This document shows positions 21,908-52,100 of a stretch of 64,000 bases of DNA, one piece after another (the stretch's first letter is position 1; each line of letters begins with the position of its first letter). A program made the translations under genes and the position numbers. Source of the DNA: an uncultured Gammaproteobacteria bacterium (GTDB lineage Bacteria > Patescibacteriota > Patescibacteriia > XYB2-FULL-38-15); contig OZ246416.1 of assembly GCA_965231095.1 (NCBI GenBank), positions 536,909 through 600,908 of the forward strand. Direction: 5' to 3'. The notes below the pieces were generated by a model, which made no database searches, was not told where the DNA came from, and was given only the letters and a program-made list of their open reading frames with translations.

Positions 21908-22159
21908 TTAACGTTGCCCAAACAGCGGTCCAAAAATCGCCATAAGCAATCCCTCAATCATTCCTGTCATAATCATGAGGGAAATAATAATCGTCAGCAA
22001 TCCGAGAAGTTTAAAAAAAATTCGCGTTCCCCCTTCGGAGCCGAGATGAATCTCTGCCCAATTAATCCGGCCGAAAAAAGATAAAAGCCATTCTGATCGG
22101 ATCACCATTATTGAGCCGACAACTATTCCAATAATTCCGACAATAATTCTTGTAATCAT
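21908..22159 (-). CDS. Small membrane protein (hypothetical).
   Basis: Two hydrophobic helices. Confidence 0.35.
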   Translation of the reverse strand: MITRIIVGIIGIVVGSIMVIRSEWLLSFFGRINWAEIHLGSEGGTRIFFKLLGLLTIIISLMIMTGMIEGLLMAIFGPLFGQR

Positions 22160-22169
22160 AATTTAATCA

Positions 22170-22386
22170 TGGACGCTATAGGATTTGAACCTATGACCCT
22201 CCCTCACTTTCACCTTTAATCTTTTTACCTCAAGGTAAGCCAACATTTTTACAAATGGGCGGCGAGGGAGTCGAACCCCCGACCTTCTCGGTGTAAACGA
22301 GACGCTCTAACCAACTGAGCTAGCCGCCCAAGGGGCGGAGAAGATAAAAGAAAGTGAGGGATGCTCTTCCGCTGAGCTAAGCGTCC
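22170..22386 (-). tRNA. Interrupted tRNA gene. The 5' half (22357-22386: acceptor, D-arm, anticodon-stem 5' strand) and the 3' half (22170-22204: anticodon-stem 3' strand, variable loop, T-arm, acceptor) are separated by ~150 nt that contain a complete tRNA-Val. Anticodon not determinable.
   Basis: GGACGCT TA GCTC AGCGGAA GAGC A TCCCT CACTTTC ...[insert]... GTGAAAGTG AGGGA GGGTC ATAGG TTCAAAT CCTAT AGCGTCC A. Perfect 7-bp acceptor pairing between the halves. 12-bp inverted repeat TCCCTCACTTTC/GAAAGTGAGGGA at the junctions. Confidence 0.5.
22256..22329 (-). tRNA. tRNA-Val (TAC), nested inside the interrupted tRNA.
   Basis: GGGCGGC TA GCTC AGTTGGTTA GAGC G TCTCG TTTACAC CGAGA AGGTC GGGGG TTCGACT CCCTC GCCGCCC A. 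Confidence 0.9.
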
Positions 22387-22391
22387 TCAAA

Positions 22392-22455
22392 TGCCCGGGA
22401 GAGGATTCGCCCAGTCATTCGACTGGGCGTCGGGTCGAATGACCCGACGAACCCC
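22392..22455 (-). other. tRNA-Leu 3'-end-like fragment (17 nt) adjoining two tandem perfect hairpins. Probable pseudo-tRNA or att-like remnant.
   Basis: gaatcctctcccgggca vs tRNA-Leu gagtcctctcctgggca. Hairpins gcccagtc-attc-gactgggc and gtcgggtc-gaat-gacccgac. Confidence 0.35.
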
Positions 22456-22495
22456 GCCATGAGTTTTGTCCCCGCTTCTCTAATATTTTTCAAAA

Positions 22496-22579
22496 TGCCC
22501 AGGAGAGGACTCGAACCTCCAATCCCGTGAGGGAACATGCACCTCAAGCATGCGCGTATACCAATTCCGCCACCTGGGC
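22496..22579 (-). tRNA. tRNA-Leu (GAG) with a long variable arm.
   Basis: GCCCAGG TG GCGG AATTGGTAT ACGC G CATGC TTGAGGT GCATG TTCCCTCACGGGATT GGAGG TTCGAGT CCTCT CCTGGGC A. Confidence 0.85.
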
Positions 22580-22622
22580 AAGGTATCTCTCACCTTAACA
22601 CCTTTTCTCTACTTTGCCAACC

Positions 22623-22823
22623 CTACTTCTGTTCCCAACTGATAGCCTGCACCGGACAATTTTCAATCGCTTTTTGAATACAATCTTTGTTGGCTTTGTA
22701 ATCAACTCCTTCGAGTATTTCTGACTTTCCGTCATTAAGCTTAAAAACCGCCGGACAAAGCGATTCGCAAAGTCCGCAACCAATGCACAGGCCTTTGTCT
22801 ATTTGTGGTTTCATATAAATCAT
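22623..22823 (-). CDS. 4Fe-4S ferredoxin (66 aa).
   Basis: CIGCGLCESLCP and CIQKAIENCP cluster motifs. Confidence 0.85.
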   Translation of the reverse strand: MIYMKPQIDKGLCIGCGLCESLCPAVFKLNDGKSEILEGVDYKANKDCIQKAIENCPVQAISWEQK

Positions 22824-27238: not shown

Positions 27239-30200
27239 TTATTCTAAAGATTTTAATTGCTCTTTAATTTTTTTAACCTTTTCTTTTTGCAATCCCAATT
27301 TCTCTTTTTCTCCAGCCACAAGTTCTTTGGGTGCGTTTTGGAGAAATGCCTTATTGGATAATTTATTTTCTAAAACTCCCAGATATTTTTCCGCTTCGGC
27401 CAATTCTTTTTCCAGGCGCGCTTTTTCTTTGGGAACGTCAATCAACCCGGCCAACGGCAAATAAATTTCGATGCCCCCCGCGATCGCTCCGGCCGACCAC
27501 TCCGGTTTTGCCCCGGATTTTTTAATCACCAAATTTTCCACTCGCGCCAAGCTTCTAATAATTCCCGCCTGCTCTTCCAAAAATTTTGTTTTTGCGCCGC
27601 CATACATTTCAACCGAAACCCTCTTCGCCGGCTCTATCTTATAATCAGCCCGCATGGCGCGAATAGCGACAACAACATTTTTCAAAATCTCAAAATCTTT
27701 TTCCGCTTTTTTATCAATCAACTTCTTTTCCGTTTTCGGCCACTCGGAAATCATCAATAAATTTCCGCCAAAATTAGGCCACAACTCCTCGGTCACGTAT
27801 GGCATAAACGGATGCCAGAGTTTAACAATTAACGAGTAACAATTAACAAGCAACAAATTGTTTGGTTGGATTTTATTTATTTCAATATACCAATCAGCAA
27901 ATTCGTCCCAGCTGAAAGCCCGCAATTTTTCTCCGGCCTGGGAAAACTCAAAATTATCCAGGTGTTTTGTAACCTCGGCGACGACATCATTCAGCCGCGA
28001 TAAAATCCACTTCTCCGCCAATGTTAAATTTTTACTTTTTAATTGTAATTTTGACTTTTGACTTTTGACTTTTGACTTTTCGATCACATATCTTCCAATA
28101 TTCCACAGTTTATTTGTAAAATTTCTAAAACCCGCGATTTTTTCGTCACTTAATTTCATATCATTTCCCGGCGAAGTGCCAAGCACCAAAGAAAGCCGCA
28201 CCGCGTCCGTGCCGTATTTTTCTATCATATCCAGGGGATCAATAATATTGCCAAGCGACTTGCTCATTTTTCTTCCTTTTTCATCGCGGATCAAGCCATG
28301 AAGATAAACATTATGAAACGGAATATCGCCTAAAACATAAGTTGTCATCAAAATCATTCTCGCAATCCAAAAAAATAAAATATCATAACCGGTTTCCAAA
28401 ACAGAAGTTGGATGATATGTTTTTAAATCTTTTGTTTTTTCCGGCCAACCTAAAGTTGAAAAAGTCCAAAGCCCGGAAGAAAACCATGTATCCAAAGTGT
28501 CGGGATCTTGTTTAAGATCTTTTTGGCCGCAGGCGGGACAAGAAACCGGAGCGAATTTTATCTCCAAAGATCCGGCCGGTTTTGGATAATCAAGTTTTAA
28601 AAAATCTTTGTTGCTCGCGAGATTGGTCTTAAAGCCCTGCACCATGCGACAAACGTCACCGTGCGTTACAACCAATATTTTTTTTCCGGCATATTTTTTT
28701 GTCACCTCTTCCAAAAATTCAAAAACTCTGGATTTTAAACTTTCAAAAGATTCAATTCCCTTCGGGTTTCCGCTCTGCCAGGCTTCAAAATTATTTTTTC
28801 TAAAATTATCAAGTTCAAAATCGGGCCCGCCCTCAAATTCCCCAACCCCGACCTCGCGTAATCTTTTATCTTCAATTATCGGAAGATGAAGATTTTCATT
28901 TATAATCGCTGCCGTATCTTTTGTCCTTTTAAAATCTGAGCAAAAAATCACGCTGAAATTTTTATTTTCAATTTCCTTGGAAATTTCACGAATCTCTTTT
29001 TCCCCATTTTCGGTCAAACCATTTGTCTGCTTGGAAACGTCCGAATTTAATTTATTCGACAAATTACTCTTCGCTTCCCCGTGGCGCATAAACAAAATTT
29101 CCGTCGGCGCAAAATCGGTCACGGCCGGCTCGTTACACTTTGCGCAATACCAAACCGGAATCTGGTGCCCAAACCAAATTTGGCGGGAAATATTCCAATC
29201 GCGCAAATTATCAATCCAATGAAAATAAGTTTTACTAAAGCGCTCGGGAATTATTTTTATTTTTCCGCCCTCTACCGCTTCACGCATCAATTTTTTTAAT
29301 GTCTTTCCGCCGCGCCGTTTTATTGGTTTATTAACATTAACAAACCACTGTTTTTTAATCTGTGGCTCAATCAATCCCTCGCCGCGCGAATTTATCGCCA
29401 CCCGATGAACATAATTTCCATCAATATGATCAACTAAACCCTTGGCCCGAAGTTTTTCCACAATTTTCTCCCGCGCCTCGCCAATTTTCATTCCGGCAAA
29501 TTCTCCGGCAATCGGAAGCAACTTGCCATCAAAATCAATAATCTGCTCTTTGTCCAAATTATGCCGCTCGGCAATTTCAAAATCTGTCGCGTCGTGCCAC
29601 GGAGTAATGGTCATCACCCCGGTGCCAAAATCCATATCAATCGCCCTATCTTTAATAACGGTGGCGGTTATTTTACCGTTGATCCACTCCACCGTTAATT
29701 TTTCCCCGTGCTTATATTTTTTGTATCGCTTGTCATCCGGATGCATCACTACATATTTATCTCCGAACTTTGTCTCGGGCCGAGCCGTACTGATCACAAA
29801 CGGCCCATACTTAAAATAATAAAAAGGAATTTTCTGTTCAATCCATTCCACCTCATCGTCGGAAACTGTAGTTTGGAGCGCCGGATCCCAATTTACAATT
29901 CTCTCCCCGCGGTAAATCAAACCATCATCATACATCATCTTAAAAACCGTGCGCACGGCCCGCGACCGCGGCTCATCCAAAGTATAGGCCTCGCGCGACC
30001 AGTCGCAAGACGATCCCATTTTTTTGATTTGATTTTTTATTGTGCTTTTTGTGCTTGTAATAAATTTTTCCACTTCACCCAAAAATTTCTCCCGGCCCAA
30101 ATCATGGCGAGTTTTTCCTTCCCGCTCTTTCAAAAGTTTTTCCACTTTGGTTTGTGTGGCAATGGCCGCGTGATCCGTACCCGGGAGCCATAAAGTCCGT

Positions 30201-30445
30201 TCGCCCCGCATCCGATGATAGCGAATTAAAATATCCTCCACCGCAAGCATTACGGCATGGCCCAAATGCAGGGTGCCGGTCACATTCGGCGGCGGCATAA
30301 TAATGGAAAATGATTTCCCTTGTCCAAGGCGATCTCTGGCTTGACGCGGCAAATTATCTGGATTAAAATACCCAGATTTCTCCCATTTTCCGTAAATCTC
30401 GTCTTCTACGGCTTTTGGATTGTACGCTTTCTCTAACTCTCGCAT
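27239..30445 (-). CDS. valS: Valine--tRNA ligase (1068 aa) carrying an inserted histidine-phosphatase (PGAM-like) domain.
   Basis: PPPNVTGTLHLGHA, KMSKSLGN, C-terminal coiled coil. Insertion at aa ~447-625 (nt 28573-29107) with LFMRHGEAKSN and VVTHGDV motifs between CAKC and CPAC. Confidence 0.9.
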   Translation of the reverse strand: MRELEKAYNPKAVEDEIYGKWEKSGYFNPDNLPRQARDRLGQGKSFSIIMPPPNVTGTLHLGHAVMLAVEDILIRYHRMRGERTLWLPGTDHAAIATQTKVEKLLKEREGKTRHDLGREKFLGEVEKFITSTKSTIKNQIKKMGSSCDWSREAYTLDEPRSRAVRTVFKMMYDDGLIYRGERIVNWDPALQTTVSDDEVEWIEQKIPFYYFKYGPFVISTARPETKFGDKYVVMHPDDKRYKKYKHGEKLTVEWINGKITATVIKDRAIDMDFGTGVMTITPWHDATDFEIAERHNLDKEQIIDFDGKLLPIAGEFAGMKIGEAREKIVEKLRAKGLVDHIDGNYVHRVAINSRGEGLIEPQIKKQWFVNVNKPIKRRGGKTLKKLMREAVEGGKIKIIPERFSKTYFHWIDNLRDWNISRQIWFGHQIPVWYCAKCNEPAVTDFAPTEILFMRHGEAKSNLSNKLNSDVSKQTNGLTENGEKEIREISKEIENKNFSVIFCSDFKRTKDTAAIINENLHLPIIEDKRLREVGVGEFEGGPDFELDNFRKNNFEAWQSGNPKGIESFESLKSRVFEFLEEVTKKYAGKKILVVTHGDVCRMVQGFKTNLASNKDFLKLDYPKPAGSLEIKFAPVSCPACGQKDLKQDPDTLDTWFSSGLWTFSTLGWPEKTKDLKTYHPTSVLETGYDILFFWIARMILMTTYVLGDIPFHNVYLHGLIRDEKGRKMSKSLGNIIDPLDMIEKYGTDAVRLSLVLGTSPGNDMKLSDEKIAGFRNFTNKLWNIGRYVIEKSKVKSQKSKLQLKSKNLTLAEKWILSRLNDVVAEVTKHLDNFEFSQAGEKLRAFSWDEFADWYIEINKIQPNNLLLVNCYSLIVKLWHPFMPYVTEELWPNFGGNLLMISEWPKTEKKLIDKKAEKDFEILKNVVVAIRAMRADYKIEPAKRVSVEMYGGAKTKFLEEQAGIIRSLARVENLVIKKSGAKPEWSAGAIAGGIEIYLPLAGLIDVPKEKARLEKELAEAEKYLGVLENKLSNKAFLQNAPKELVAGEKEKLGLQKEKVKKIKEQLKSLE

Positions 30446-49136: not shown

Positions 49137-52100
49137 ATGAATATGGCAAGGAGGAAAAAACTCCCTACTCGGGGAACCGCAAAAGCAAGACCGGCCGTGA
49201 AAAATTTATCTATAAATAATAGATATTTAGCCAAAGGTCTTATGAAAAAAAATACCAAAACACTCTTAATCACGAGCGTAATTTTTGTCATAGCTGTTTT
49301 AGCCGTAGCCACGACTATTTATATAACTAAATTTGTTCTCTCCTCCGACGGCTCGGGGACAAATTCTGTTTCCCCGGGCACCTCCACCGCCGGTGCCACA
49401 GGCGACACCCAAACTTTTACCTTCACCGCGGCGGAAACCATGGGCTCGGGCGAAATTTCTATCACGGTTCCTTCGGGCTGGAGCGCGCCGCAAGGATCGT
49501 CCGGCACAGCCGGCTATACCACAGCCACTTCAGCCGCGGGCACGGTTGCTGACGTAAAAGATAATGCCGACTCGGCCACTGGCTGGGTGGCGGGCAACGC
49601 TTGCACAAACGGACTTTCGCTTGATACTTCAGTAAAACACGAAGGTGGCGGTTCGGTTCAATGTGCCAATGGCAACGAAGGCGCTGGAAACCGCTGGTAT
49701 AAAAACATTACCTCGGAAAATTGGTCCGGCTATACCCGCGTCGGATTTTGGATCCGCTCTTCAGGATCAATCAGCGACACCAATCTCCGCTTTGGTTATG
49801 ACAACTCGGCGAATTTAGCCAGCCCCCTGGAACAAATTTCTTTTGGCCAAGTAATTCCGGCCAATACTTGGACTTATGTCGTTTTAAATTTTGGCGCCAC
49901 AACCCGCACCTCGGTTGTGAGTTTTGGTTTTGTAATAAGAGACGGAGCGGACCTGGACAATGAAAATGTTTGGATTGATGATTTATTAATCGGTCCGGGC
50001 GTTCCGACATATCCTGGCGGCAATGAAATTCGCGCGAGAATTTTACAACTTACGAGCGGACAAACCATGACCGTCACTTACGGCGCGGGCGGAGGAACTT
50101 CCGGAGCAACTGTTCCCACTGCCGCCGGCTCATACAATTTTTTAACTCAATCAAAAGTTTCCGATGCCGGCACTCTTACAAATATTGCTTCTTCGCCAAC
50201 CGTCACCGTAGGCGCCGGAGCGATTTCACAATTTACTCTGACTGATCCGGGAAATATAGGAGCCGGAGAACGGCTTGGCTACACAGTGACGAGAAAAGAC
50301 CAATACGGAAACACTGTCCTCTCGGGCACGAGCACGGTTTATCTTTATTCCAGTTCCGCCGGAGCCAACAAACGTTTTTACGACGCGGCCACGGGCGGAA
50401 ACATTATTACTTCAGTCACGATCGGAAACGGCCAGCCGTCAAAAAACTTCTGGTATTATGATGAGGCTCCTGGAACTTACACCATCACCACTTCAGACAA
50501 TACCACAAGCCCGGATGGCACCACGGGGATTGACGACGCCACCGATTCGGTCACAATTTCGGGCGGGGCCGTCGCGGAATTTATCTTAAACGATCCGGGC
50601 AATCTTACCTCCGGAGCGCGCGCCCCCTACAGCGTGTCACGCGAAGATCAATTTGGAAATTTAGTCACCACCGGCTCCACCACAGTTTATTTATACAGCA
50701 ACTCGGGAAGCATGGATTACGCTTTCTATGACGCGGCCACGGGCGGAAGCCAAATAACTTCAATAAATATCGGCAGCGGAAATTCTTCGGCAAATTTTTG
50801 GTATTATGACGAGCTGGCTGACACTTGGACTATCACCGCTTCAGACAATGCCACAAGCCCCGACGGCGCAACGGGCGCCTCCGACGGAACCGACAGCATC
50901 ACTGTTCTCCCGGGCGCCACTTCCCACTTTGTTTTAAATGATCCGGGAGATACGACAGCCGGCACGCGGCTTGGATATACTGTGACGCGCCAAGACCAGT
51001 TTGGAAATGTTGTCACTTCCGGGACGAACACGGTATATCTTTATTCCGATTCTTCCGGATTAAATTATCATTTTTATAACGCGGCCACGGGCGGAAGTAT
51101 CACGAGCTCCCGCCAAATTACGAGTGGCCAATCTACGGCAAACTTCTGGTATTATGACGAGCTGGCGGGAACTTTTTCTATCACTGCCTCCGACAACTCT
51201 TCGACCCCCGATGGAAATTTAGGGATTGATGATTCATCAGATAGCGTAATAATTTCCGGCGGAGCGGTTTCAAAATTTTCTCTAAACGATCCGGGCGATA
51301 TGACCGCGGAAACGCGGCTTGGCTACATTGTCACAAGAAAAGATCAATACAATAATCCTGCCACTTCCGGCTTTAACACCATCTATCTTTATTCAACTTC
51401 CGTAAGTCCGGCCAAAGCGTTTTTTAACGCGGCAAGCGGTGGCAATCAAATAACTTCCGCGAGTATTAACGACGGCCAATCCACGGCGAACTTTTGGTAC
51501 TACGACGATCTGGCCGGAATTTATACCATCACCTCTTCGGACAATGCTACTTTTCCGGATGACGCCACGGGAATTGACGACGCGACAGATTTATTGACTG
51601 TAAATGCCATACCCATTGTGGCGACCAGATTTACAATTTTAGATCCAACTGACGGCACGGTTGACGCGCCGATCACTGTCACAATCCGAGCGGAAGATGA
51701 CAGCAATAACGTTGACACAACCTACCAAAACGATGTGACATTGGTCGCGAGCAGTTCAGCTACGGGCGAAGGTTTGGTAAATATTGTAAATGGCCTTGGC
51801 ACCCTAAATCTTTCCGACACAGTCGCGGAAACTGTTAATTTATCTTTGTCTGATACAGAGGGCACTGGCCTTGTTGTCACCTCCGCGCAAGGAGTAATTT
51901 TTTCCGCCGGCGCCGCAGCTAAATTTTTTCTAAACGACCCGGGCAATACAGTCGCCGGCACCCGTTTGGGATATACTGTGACGCGCAAAGACCAATTTGA
52001 AAATTTAACCACCACGGGAACCACCGTAGTTTATCTTTACACCAATTCTTCTGGCACAACTACTTTTTATGATTCAGATGTCGGAGGAAATGAAATTTTA

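What the first reader, a model, noticed from the sequence alone, without database searches (positions are those of the whole stretch)
22170..22386. tRNA gene split in the anticodon region by ~150 nt that contain a complete tRNA-Val(TAC)
The 5' piece (acceptor GGACGCT, D-arm, TCCCT) and the 3' piece (AGGGA, variable loop, T-arm, AGCGTCC-A) show perfect acceptor and anticodon-stem complementarity. The two pieces lie 150 nt apart. At the junctions a 12-bp inverted repeat (TCCCTCACTTTC / GAAAGTGAGGGA) would clamp the insert into a long helix. The insert contains an intact tRNA-Val. Possible explanations are a nested arrangement, an unusual intron with nested tRNA processing, or a MITE-like insertion with 7-bp terminal inverted repeats (CACTTTC) into a tRNA anticodon loop.
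Basis: seen in the sequence. Interest (0 to 1): 0.7.

Follow-up and report, generated by a model that had tools for sequence, protein, structure and literature searches.

The report
Dead tRNA-Val gene holding its replacement
A tRNA-Val gene in a tiny-genome (Patescibacteria) bacterium was knocked out when a 162-base piece of DNA carrying a second tRNA-Val with the same anticodon landed in its anticodon arm; the two halves are leftovers, not an intron-containing gene.

Summary
On the minus strand, 22386-22362 and 22199-22170 are the two halves of one tRNA. They flank 162 nt with 12-bp perfect inverted ends (TCCCTCACTTTC/GAAAGTGAGGGA) and a complete tRNA-Val(UAC) at 22329-22256.

Syntenic loci show what the outer gene was. 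In five related lineages the same site, between tRNA-Leu(GAG) and an 83-aa ORF, holds an intact 72-nt tRNA-Val(UAC), "type A". It is identical to the window's halves at 55 of 55 positions. So the outer gene is a resident tRNA-Val(UAC) whose anticodon arm was replaced by a cassette carrying another tRNA-Val(UAC), "type B".

It is not an intron:
- no 7-nt loop or anticodon can be rebuilt;
- there is no group I signal;
- relatives with the same junctions have lost or degraded one or both halves.

It is not shown to be a MITE: no target-site duplication and no other copy found.

One point is unexplained. The window's halves are unmutated although older alleles have decayed at about the neutral rate, and A and B alleles are interspersed on the flanking-gene tree. 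This suggests recent arrival by recombination or re-insertion.

Moderate interest: a clear snapshot of tRNA gene replacement.

The parts
22362..22386 (-). 5' half (positions 1-26: acceptor 5' strand, D arm, A26) of the disrupted resident tRNA-Val(UAC), 'type A'
   Evidence: It is 25/25 identical to intact tRNA-Val(TAC) at the syntenic site in L017, L018, L019, L021, L023, L028 and L029, and also in L024 and L041. ARAGORN calls those orthologs tRNA-Val(tac).
22350..22361 (-). Left arm of the cassette's inverted repeat (TCCCTCACTTTC). It starts exactly where tRNA position 27 would be.
   Evidence: The same junction, GCA|T(C/T)CCTCACTTTC, is seen in L030 and in L038/L039.
22330..22349 (-). Left spacer (TTTTATCTTCTCCGCCCCTT). 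Its first 9 nt extend the inverted repeat imperfectly.
   Evidence: It aligns with L030 but not with L038.
22256..22329 (-). Intact tRNA-Val(UAC), 'type B', presumed to be the working gene
   Evidence: ARAGORN and Rfam tRNA at 70.2 bits. It shares its acceptor and D arm with the window's tRNA-Val(GAC). It shares its anticodon arm with Val(TAC) of distant relatives.
22212..22255 (-). Right spacer. It contains a small hairpin (CTTACC-TTGA-GGTAA) and the imperfect extension of the inverted repeat (AAGATTAAA, 22223-22215).
   Evidence: It is conserved in L014-L016 and partly in L002.
22200..22211 (-). Right arm of the inverted repeat (GAAAGTGAGGGA). It ends exactly where tRNA position 44 begins.
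   Evidence: The arm is identical in L014-L016. L002 has GAAAATGAGGGA.
22170..22199 (-). 3' half (positions 44-73: variable loop, T arm, acceptor 3' strand, A73) of the disrupted type A tRNA-Val(UAC)
   Evidence: It is 30/30 identical to the intact orthologs. The same half carries 2-4 changes in L014/L016 and 9/30 changes in L002. It is deleted in L001, L003, L030 and L038.
22495..22580 (-). tRNA-Leu(GAG), first gene of the cluster (context)
   Evidence: In intact-A relatives it is followed directly by TTTGA and then type A Val.
22392..22475 (-). Degenerate tRNA-Leu-like remnant. It ends in ..AATCCTCTCCCGGGCA followed by TTTGA, and a 40-nt double hairpin (22447-22408) sits where the T loop would be.
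   Evidence: Homologous pseudo-Leu sequences are present in L001, L002, L026, L030 and L040 and absent from all intact-A loci.
21908..22159 (-). 83-aa membrane-protein ORF, 10 nt downstream of the 3' half. It is the synteny anchor.
   Evidence: A Val(TAC) gene lies next to its homolog even in distant relatives.

Best explanation
The outer 'split tRNA' is the lineage's resident tRNA-Val(UAC) gene (type A, 72 nt, short D loop). It was inactivated when a 162-bp DNA segment took the place of its 17-nt anticodon arm. That segment is bounded by 12-bp perfect inverted repeats (about 21 bp imperfect) and carries another tRNA-Val(UAC) gene (type B).

Type B, a canonical tRNA, now supplies tRNA-Val(UAC). 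The two type A halves are non-coding remnants.

Inferred, not shown:
- The cluster Leu(GAG) - pseudo-Leu - A 5' half - B - A 3' half - 83-aa ORF is transcribed as one precursor.
- RNase P and 3' processing release Leu and type B.
- The halves are discarded as leader and trailer. They are predicted to stay annealed as a two-piece tRNA-like duplex that has no anticodon loop.

Shown:
- The halves are orthologous to an intact Val(UAC) gene.
- The insertion junctions are shared by several lineages.
- In those lineages the halves are at every stage of decay.

How the cassette first entered is not established. In the window's clade the allele looks evolutionarily young. It most likely arrived by recombination with crossovers inside the invariant tRNA sequences, or by a fresh site-specific insertion.
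For: 1. Orthology. At the same site (tRNA-Leu(GAG) + TTTGA ... 10-12 nt + ATG of the 83-aa ORF), L017, L018/L025, L019, L021, L023, L024, L028 and L029 carry GGACGCTTAGCTCAGCGGAAGAGCA-CTTCC-TTTACAC-GGAAG-GGGTCATAGGTTCAAATCCTATAGCGTCCA; L041 carries the same gene after tRNA-Leu + TTGA, but different DNA follows it and no 83-aa ORF is seen in the 822-nt contig. ARAGORN calls this tRNA-Val(tac). The window's halves match it 55/55. L024 has a compensatory T-stem change (GTAGG/CCTAC), as expected of a working gene.

2. No anticodon loop can be restored from the junction sequence.

3. The same junctions occur with decayed halves.
- L014-L016: same right junction, with 3' half mutations that break the T stem.
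- L002: 9/30 changes in the 3' half, 5' half gone.
- L030: scrambled 5' half plus left arm, 3' half deleted.
- L038/L039: 5' half interrupted by a 41-nt hairpin insertion, 3' half deleted.
- L001/L026 and L003: only traces remain.

4. Type B is a high-scoring tRNA (70.2 bits) and the only Val(TAC) in the window. It resembles the genome's own Val(GAC) and the Val(TAC) of distant relatives.

5. It is not an assembly artefact. The junctions recur in independent assemblies: three Logan runs, two NCBI MAGs and one JGI contig.

6. There is no group I intron signal at E<=10. Known Patescibacteria tRNA introns are self-splicing group I introns of 184-894 nt (PMC13011429).
Against: 1. The window's halves are unexpectedly pristine.
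- Divergence at 4-fold sites between the window and the L002, L030 and L038 lineages is 0.74-0.92 substitutions per site.
- Their halves have decayed at about that rate.
- The window has 0 changes in 55 nt and a perfect 12/12 repeat.
- Simple vertical, neutral decay since one old insertion would predict roughly 20 changes.
- This requires a young allele, gene conversion or past constraint.

2. Since the split from L014/L016, about 2.7 neutral changes are expected in the window's halves. Zero are seen (P about 0.07), so weak constraint is not excluded.

3. The left arm is better conserved than the adjacent 5' half in L030 and L038 (1/24 versus about 12/50 changes), even though its partner arm is deleted there. 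This is unexplained.

4. The exact replacement of positions 27-43 by a helix whose outer 5 bp mimic an anticodon stem is not what random insertion predicts.

5. The rest of this genome was not available. A second intact type A copy cannot be excluded.

6. No expression data exist.
Confidence: 0.8

Rival explanations
1. Active mobile cassette. The 162-bp inverted-repeat-bounded unit carrying tRNA-Val(UAC) is a non-autonomous mobile element, or a homing-like cassette. It repeatedly targets the anticodon arm of the type A tRNA-Val gene and compensates for the damage by bringing its own isoacceptor. This concerns the mechanism of entry and is compatible with the halves being dead.
For: - The unit has 12-bp perfect (about 21-bp imperfect) terminal inverted repeats and is small.
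- The junctions are identical in all alleles.
- The window-clade allele looks young while other alleles are old.
- A and B alleles are interspersed on the flanking-gene tree. For example, L028 (A) is sister to L003 (B) with 100% bootstrap.
- A MITE-like insertion (about 150 bp, about 13-bp inverted ends, apparent TATG duplication) sits at this very locus in L019/L020.
- No other tRNA in the window is flanked by such a repeat.
Against: - There is no target-site duplication. Instead, 17 nt of target are replaced.
- No second copy of the arms exists in the 64-kb window or in the 23 related loci (L001-L023) held when that scan was run.
- No transposase or integrase lies in the conserved housekeeping neighbourhood.
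- Viral-contig scans gave only chance matches.
- Interspersion and youth are equally explained by ordinary homologous recombination. The Leu gene is also swapped between two types.
Confidence: 0.12
2. Retained processing scaffold. The two halves are kept, at least in this lineage, because together they form an acceptor/T-arm minihelix and a long helix. This structure would direct RNase P, RNase Z or RNase III cleavage, releasing type B and defining the 5' end of the downstream 83-aa ORF mRNA (tRNA punctuation).
For: - The halves show 0/55 changes and the repeat is 12/12.
- A stable two-piece tRNA-like duplex is predicted, with ddG of -24 kcal/mol.
- The ORF starts 10 nt after the 3' half, and no promoter or terminator is predicted within the cluster.
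- In alleles that lost the 3' half, type B itself lies 12-16 nt from the ATG.
Against: - The closest relatives (L014, L016) carry T-stem- and variable-loop-breaking changes at about the neutral rate.
- At least six other lineages dispense with one or both halves.
- No covariation data exist.
- The P value for zero changes since the last split is only about 0.07.
Confidence: 0.08
3. Intron-containing, functional tRNA. The 150-160 nt are removed from the RNA, with the inner tRNA released, and the outer exons are joined into a working tRNA.
For: The halves are perfect, and a helix brings the ends together. Patescibacteria are rich in tRNA introns (PMC13011429).
Against: - No anticodon or 7-nt loop can be formed from the junctions.
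- The ortholog's anticodon arm is absent.
- No group I core is detected, and the insert is shorter than any reported bacterial tRNA group I intron (184 nt minimum).
- There is no bulge-helix-bulge motif.
- The halves decay in relatives.
Confidence: 0.02
4. Remnant of a larger integrated element. A site-specific recombinase acting at the anticodon stem-loop integrated an element that carried type B, and later deletions removed almost everything except type B and att-like inverted ends.
For: - tRNA anticodon loops are classic integration sublocations (general knowledge).
- Archaeal populations show an element that integrates into a tRNA gene, carries its own copy and leaves a tRNA fragment (PMC3293823).
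- The neighbouring pseudo-Leu resembles a displaced tRNA copy.
Against: - No integrase or element genes are present in any allele.
- The host anticodon stem strands (CTTCC/GGAAG) are not retained at the junctions, as att recombination would predict.
- The target tRNA is not restored.
Confidence: 0.06

Closest known systems
tRNA gene disruption by an integrating element that carries its own tRNA copy (Caldiarchaeum subterraneum tRNA-Thr locus, PMC3293823; pNOB8/SSV-type integration into archaeal tRNA genes)
   Same: Incoming DNA that brings a same-anticodon tRNA interrupts the resident tRNA gene. Fragments of the old gene remain beside the new one. Population heterogeneity exposes the steps.
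   Different: - Here the organism is a bacterium.
- The insert is only 162 bp and has no recombinase.
- Both halves are kept in order around the new gene.
- The incoming copy is a complete, separate tRNA rather than a part that restores the target.
Group I introns in Patescibacteria tRNA genes (PMC13011429)
   Same: Same phylum. The interruption lies in the anticodon region, and standard tRNA finders miss the outer gene.
   Different: - Those are 184-894-nt self-splicing ribozymes that leave a 7-nt anticodon loop.
- This insert has no group I core.
- It removes the whole anticodon arm.
- It contains a tRNA.
- It decays in relatives.
MITEs (miniature inverted-repeat transposable elements)
   Same: Small size, terminal inverted repeats, no coding capacity for a transposase.
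   Different: - No target-site duplication.
- Single copy.
- Carries a functional tRNA gene.
- Replaces 17 nt of target.
- A MITE-like element with an apparent TATG duplication is present at the same locus in L019/L020 for contrast.
Archaeal split, intron-containing and permuted tRNA genes (bulge-helix-bulge dependent)
   Same: tRNA halves separated in the DNA, with a helix formed by flanking sequence at the junction.
   Different: - There is no bulge-helix-bulge motif.
- The host is bacterial.
- No mature anticodon loop is recoverable.
- The halves are not conserved across relatives.

Membership tests
Disrupted tRNA gene (tRNA pseudogene) with functional replacement | The fragments are orthologous to an intact, functional tRNA gene at the same genomic position | tested here: met
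   The fragments match intact tRNA-Val(tac) 55/55 at the same position, downstream of tRNA-Leu(GAG) and directly upstream of the 83-aa ORF, in L017-L019, L021, L023, L024, L028 and L029 (L017 lacks the upstream Leu); L041 carries the same gene after Leu but is not followed by that ORF.
Disrupted tRNA gene (tRNA pseudogene) with functional replacement | An essential part is missing, so that no functional tRNA can be made | tested here: met
   The 17-nt anticodon arm (CTTCC TTTACAC GGAAG) is absent. No 7-nt loop with U33 and TAC can be assembled. ARAGORN and Rfam do not call the outer gene.
Disrupted tRNA gene (tRNA pseudogene) with functional replacement | The fragments evolve without constraint in related genomes | tested here: met
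   L002 has 9/30 changes and L030 about 9/25. L038 has about 4/25 changes plus a 41-nt insertion. L014/L016 have 2-4/30 changes. Deletions occur in L001, L003, L030 and L038. Caveat: the window itself shows 0/55 changes.
Disrupted tRNA gene (tRNA pseudogene) with functional replacement | An isoacceptor with the same anticodon is present to cover the codon | tested here: met
   Type B tRNA-Val(tac) at 22256-22329 scores 70.2 bits.
Group I intron in a bacterial tRNA gene | Conserved group I catalytic core detectable with RF00028 | tested here: not met
   No Intron_gpI match at E<=10 in 22050-22750.
Group I intron in a bacterial tRNA gene | Removal leaves a 7-nt anticodon loop and a valid cloverleaf | tested here: not met
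   All eight ways of combining junction nucleotides lack U33 and any Val anticodon (own reading).
Group I intron in a bacterial tRNA gene | Self-splicing activity | not testable with these tools
   This needs in vitro transcription and splicing, or RNA-seq.
MITE | Terminal inverted repeats | tested here: met
   12/12 perfect, about 21 bp imperfect.
MITE | Target-site duplication flanking the element | tested here: not met
   The flanks are GAGCA| and |GGGTC. There is no direct repeat, and 17 nt of target are lost instead.
MITE | Multiple copies per genome or in other genomic contexts | tested here: inconclusive
   No other copy in the 64-kb window or in the 23 related loci (L001-L023) held at that point. 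Viral scans gave chance hits only.
Archaeal-type (bulge-helix-bulge) tRNA intron or split tRNA | Bulge-helix-bulge motif (3-nt bulge, 4-bp helix, 3-nt bulge) at the exon-intron junctions | tested here: not met
   The junction folds as an uninterrupted 12-bp helix.
Archaeal-type (bulge-helix-bulge) tRNA intron or split tRNA | Splicing endonuclease (EndA) encoded by the organism | not tested
   Only 64 kb of the genome is available. The organism is a Patescibacteria bacterium according to its relatives.
Site-specific integration at a tRNA anticodon loop (att site remnant) | Integrase gene, or other element genes, between the displaced tRNA parts | tested here: not met
   Only 162 nt lie between the halves. 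The neighbours are conserved housekeeping genes in all alleles.
Site-specific integration at a tRNA anticodon loop (att site remnant) | Host anticodon-stem strands retained at attL/attR and the tRNA restored by element sequence | tested here: not met
   CTTCC/GGAAG are not at the junctions, and the outer tRNA is not restored.

The most novel reading that the evidence does not exclude
The 162-bp cassette is a self-compensating mobile tRNA unit. It spreads among Patescibacteria lineages by inserting into, and destroying, the anticodon arm of the resident isoacceptor gene, using the invariant tRNA halves as landing homology or a still unknown site-specific mechanism. Fresh alleles such as this window's would then coexist with old decayed ones, as in a homing cycle without a homing enzyme. 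Alternatively, the pristine halves form a functional two-piece tRNA-like RNA.
Probability: 0.12. Interest if true: 0.7.

Novelty: new variant of a known kind. Interest (0 to 1): 0.4.

Why it matters
This is a clean natural series showing how an essential single-copy tRNA gene can be exchanged for a different gene with the same anticodon without ever leaving the codon uncovered. The series runs from an intact gene, to a gene with its replacement nested in its anticodon arm, to one half lost, to both halves lost.

It also shows that the tRNA cluster of these tiny genomes is a recombination hot spot where alleles move between lineages.

There are two practical points:
- Such remnants can be mistaken for intron-containing or split tRNAs.
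- Standard tRNA finders do not report them.

If the cassette proves to be actively targeting its isoacceptor, it would be a new kind of selfish tRNA element.

Tried and rejected
- **Group I intron.** An Rfam scan at E<=10 over 22050-22750 gave no intron family. The literature on Patescibacteria tRNA introns describes a different thing.
- **Spliced loop.** I enumerated every 7-nt loop made from junction nucleotides. None has U33 or a Val anticodon.
- **5' partner for the pseudo-Leu 3' end.** GCCCGGGAG also occurs at 50907-50915, but that site reads as ordinary non-tRNA sequence.
- **Exact look-up of the window's 83-aa protein.** It is not on record, so homologs were used instead.
- **Metagenome scan for the type A 5' 25-mer.** Only two contigs were found, both with intact A.
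- **Viral origin.**
  - The inverted-arm pattern with a gap hit only a phage intergenic region between divergent genes, with no tRNA.
  - The left-junction 16-mer gave ten chance hits.
  - The right junction gave none.
  - The type A D-arm motif occurs in phage tRNA-Val genes. Those genes otherwise differ, so this remains a lead only.
- **Flanking helices as a general feature.** No other tRNA in the window has one.
- **Promoter and terminator scan of the cluster.** Nothing was found inside it.
- **5' junction in the L014-type genome.** I tried to recover it through its ferredoxin gene. That contig (L052) breaks inside tRNA-Leu.
- **Alternative junction alignment.** GAGCA+[TCCCTCA]+CTTTC and GAAAG+[TGAGGGA]+GGGTC would keep a CTTCC/GGAAG-like stem plus symmetric 7-nt additions. 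I could neither confirm nor exclude this.
- **Other copies of the 40-nt hairpin element.** None were found in the window.

Full report
**1. What is there**

The features below all lie on the minus strand.
- tRNA-Leu(GAG), 22580-22495.
- A degenerate tRNA-Leu-like remnant, about 22475-22392.
- TTTGA.
- The 5' part of a tRNA, 22386-22362: GGACGCT TA GCTC AGCGGAA GAGC A.
- TCCCTCACTTTC, 22361-22350.
- A 20-nt spacer.
- A complete tRNA-Val(TAC), 22329-22256. ARAGORN calls it and Rfam scores it 70.2 bits.
- A 44-nt spacer.
- GAAAGTGAGGGA, 22211-22200.
- The 3' part of a tRNA, 22199-22170: GGGTC ATAGG TTCAAAT CCTAT AGCGTCC A.
- Ten nucleotides later, the ATG of an 83-aa membrane-protein ORF.

The acceptor (7/7), D and T stems of the outer pieces are perfect. 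The 12-nt arms are perfectly complementary. They extend imperfectly to about 21 bp. The 12-mer occurs nowhere else in the window. ARAGORN and Rfam do not report the outer tRNA.

**2. What the outer gene is**

The neighbouring genes are ArgRS, bactofilin, a DAGK-like protein and ferredoxin on one side. On the other side are the 83-aa ORF, a methyltransferase, a 134-aa protein, UPF0102 and NusA. They identify a Patescibacteria (Falkowbacteria-like) bacterium with many syntenic relatives.

In L017, L018/L025, L019, L021, L023, L024, L028 and L029 the same position, directly upstream of the 83-aa ORF, holds an uninterrupted 72-nt gene. L041 holds the same gene after tRNA-Leu, but its downstream sequence differs and no 83-aa ORF is seen there. 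Its sequence is GGACGCTTAGCTCAGCGGAAGAGCA CTTCC TTTACAC GGAAG GGGTCATAGGTTCAAATCCTATAGCGTCCA. ARAGORN calls it tRNA-Val(tac). I call this gene type A.

The window's two pieces equal positions 1-26 and 44-73 of type A at 55/55 positions. L024 carries a compensatory T-stem change, which marks type A as a living gene.

So the outer tRNA is itself a tRNA-Val(UAC). Its entire 17-nt anticodon arm has been replaced by 162 nt that contain another tRNA-Val(UAC), which I call type B.

Type B shares its acceptor stem and D arm with the window's own tRNA-Val(GAC). It shares its anticodon arm (TCTCG TTTACAC CGAGA) with Val(TAC) of distant relatives. In those relatives a Val(TAC) gene also lies next to the 83-aa ORF homolog.

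**3. Why it is not an intron**
- No combination of junction nucleotides gives a 7-nt loop with U33, and no TAC is available.
- There is no group I core even at E<=10. Reported Patescibacteria tRNA introns are self-splicing group I introns of 184-894 nt (PMC13011429).
- The junction is an uninterrupted helix, not a bulge-helix-bulge motif.
- Relatives with the very same junctions have let the halves decay, as listed in section 4.

**4. The decay series in relatives**
- L014-L016 have type B, the spacer and GAAAGTGAGGGA, followed by a 3' half with 2-4 changes. These include T-stem breaks.
- L002 has a 3' half with 9/30 changes and no 5' half.
- L030 has a scrambled 5' half (GGAATTCGGTTTGGCGGAAGAGCA) plus TTCCTCACTTTC. 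Its 3' half is deleted.
- L038/L039 have a 5' half interrupted by a 41-nt GC-rich double hairpin, then GCATCCCTCACTTTC. The 3' half is deleted.
- L001/L026 and L003 keep only traces.

These independent assemblies also rule out a chimeric contig.

**5. How it most likely works now (inference)**

No promoter or terminator is predicted within the cluster. The cluster is therefore probably one transcript, from which RNase P and 3' processing release tRNA-Leu and type B tRNA-Val.

The type A halves would be leader and trailer. Once type B is cut out, they are predicted to stay paired as a two-piece tRNA-like molecule without an anticodon loop (ddG of -24 kcal/mol). Type B is the only Val(TAC) gene in the window.

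**6. What remains unexplained**

Neutral divergence at 4-fold sites between the window and the L002, L030 and L038 lineages is 0.74-0.92 substitutions per site. Their halves have decayed at roughly that rate. The window shows 0/55 changes and a perfect repeat.

Against its closest relatives, L014/L016, divergence is 0.09-0.12, split evenly between the two branches. About 2.7 changes would be expected in the window's halves since that split. Zero are seen (P about 0.07). L014/L016 show 2-4 changes in 30 nt.

The simplest reading is that the nested allele is young in this clade.

The flanking-gene tree supports horizontal movement. A and B alleles are interspersed. L028 (intact A) is sister to L003 (B only) with 100% bootstrap and 93% DNA identity over 5 kb. 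Yet the whole Leu-Val segment differs between them, including two distinct tRNA-Leu(GAG) types.

Recombination with crossovers in the invariant tRNA sequences, or re-insertion by a site-specific process, would deliver the cassette into a still-intact type A gene. That would produce pristine halves. Past constraint or gene conversion from an unseen second copy cannot be excluded.

Two further points are unexplained. First, positions 27-43 are replaced exactly, by a helix whose outer 5 bp mimic an anticodon stem. Second, the left arm stays conserved in L030 and L038 although its partner arm is gone.

**7. Mechanism of entry**

The cassette has inverted ends like a MITE. However, it lacks a target-site duplication and replaces 17 nt of target. 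It has no other copy in the window or in the 23 related loci (L001-L023) held at the time of that scan. No recombinase is nearby.

Viral-contig scans for the arms and junctions returned only chance matches. Other tRNAs in the window have no flanking helix.

A MITE-like element with about 13-bp inverted ends and an apparent TATG duplication does sit between type A and the ORF in L019/L020. Small mobile elements therefore do visit this locus.

The closest described analogue is the Caldiarchaeum tRNA-Thr locus. There an integrating element with its own tRNA copy left a fragment of the resident gene (PMC3293823).

**8. Verdict**

The intron reading is rejected. The nested, insertion-type reading is supported, and the gene's identity is now known: tRNA-Val(UAC) inside tRNA-Val(UAC).

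It is a relic of tRNA gene replacement, caught at its freshest stage, in a recombination-prone tRNA cluster. Interest is moderate. It would rise if the cassette proves to target its isoacceptor actively.

Noticed in passing
window 27239-30445 (minus strand), protein residues 450-602: The valyl-tRNA synthetase (1068 aa) carries an inserted histidine-phosphatase domain in the middle of the class I catalytic domain (Pfam His_Phos_1, E=4e-33). This is an unusual fusion, about 5 kb from the tRNA-Val locus.
   Followed up: partly
window 22392-22475 (minus strand), with hairpins at 22408-22447: A degenerate tRNA-Leu-like remnant lies between tRNA-Leu(GAG) and the type A 5' half. Its 3' end (AATCCTCTCCCGGGCA) is of the 'type 2' Leu kind, unlike the functional type 1 Leu beside it. 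A 40-nt GC-rich double hairpin sits where the T loop would be. Homologous pseudo-Leu copies co-occur with the type B cassette in L001, L002, L026, L030 and L040 and are absent from all intact-A loci.
   Followed up: partly
L038 2786-2826 (also L039): A 41-nt GC-rich double hairpin (GGCCGACGCAAGGTCGGCC TCCCGACCCGCGCGCGTCGGGA) is inserted into the decaying type A 5' half. It is similar in kind to the double hairpin in the window's pseudo-Leu and may belong to a small palindromic insertion element family.
   Followed up: no
L019 about 2370-2500 and L020 about 45-150: A MITE-like insertion of about 100-130 bp has inverted ends of about 13 bp (CCCCGTTAGAAAT...ATTTCTAACGGGG) and an apparent TATG duplication. 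It sits between the intact type A tRNA-Val and the start codon of the 83-aa ORF. It is absent from the otherwise near-identical L018, L021 and L023.
   Followed up: partly
L001 4829-4875, L026, L030, L040, L002 (between tRNA-Leu and pseudo-Leu): An AT-rich hairpin of about 40 nt (TATAAATTTTGCA...TGCAAAATTTATA) is maintained by compensatory changes across lineages. Four of its stem pairs show both-sided changes (five pairs in the whole predicted structure). It is absent from the window.
   Followed up: partly
L003, L004, L024, L040, L041, L052 versus the window, L001, L018, L028: Two clearly different tRNA-Leu(GAG) genes (anticodon stems GCATG/CATGC versus CTACC/GGTAG, and different variable arms) are distributed incongruently with the flanking-gene tree. 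The whole tRNA cassette is exchanged between lineages.
   Followed up: partly
L032 5957-6031, L033 3830-3904, L034 5546-5620 (IMG/VR viral contigs): Phage tRNA arrays contain tRNA-Val genes with the same short D arm (GCTTAGCTCAGCGGAAGAGCA) as type A. This hints that the unusual type A could be of phage-like origin. The rest of the sequences differ.
   Followed up: no
L040 2701-3042: In one relative a 113-aa membrane-protein ORF has been inserted between the pseudo-Leu and the type B tRNA-Val, which further illustrates how plastic this intergenic region is.
   Followed up: no
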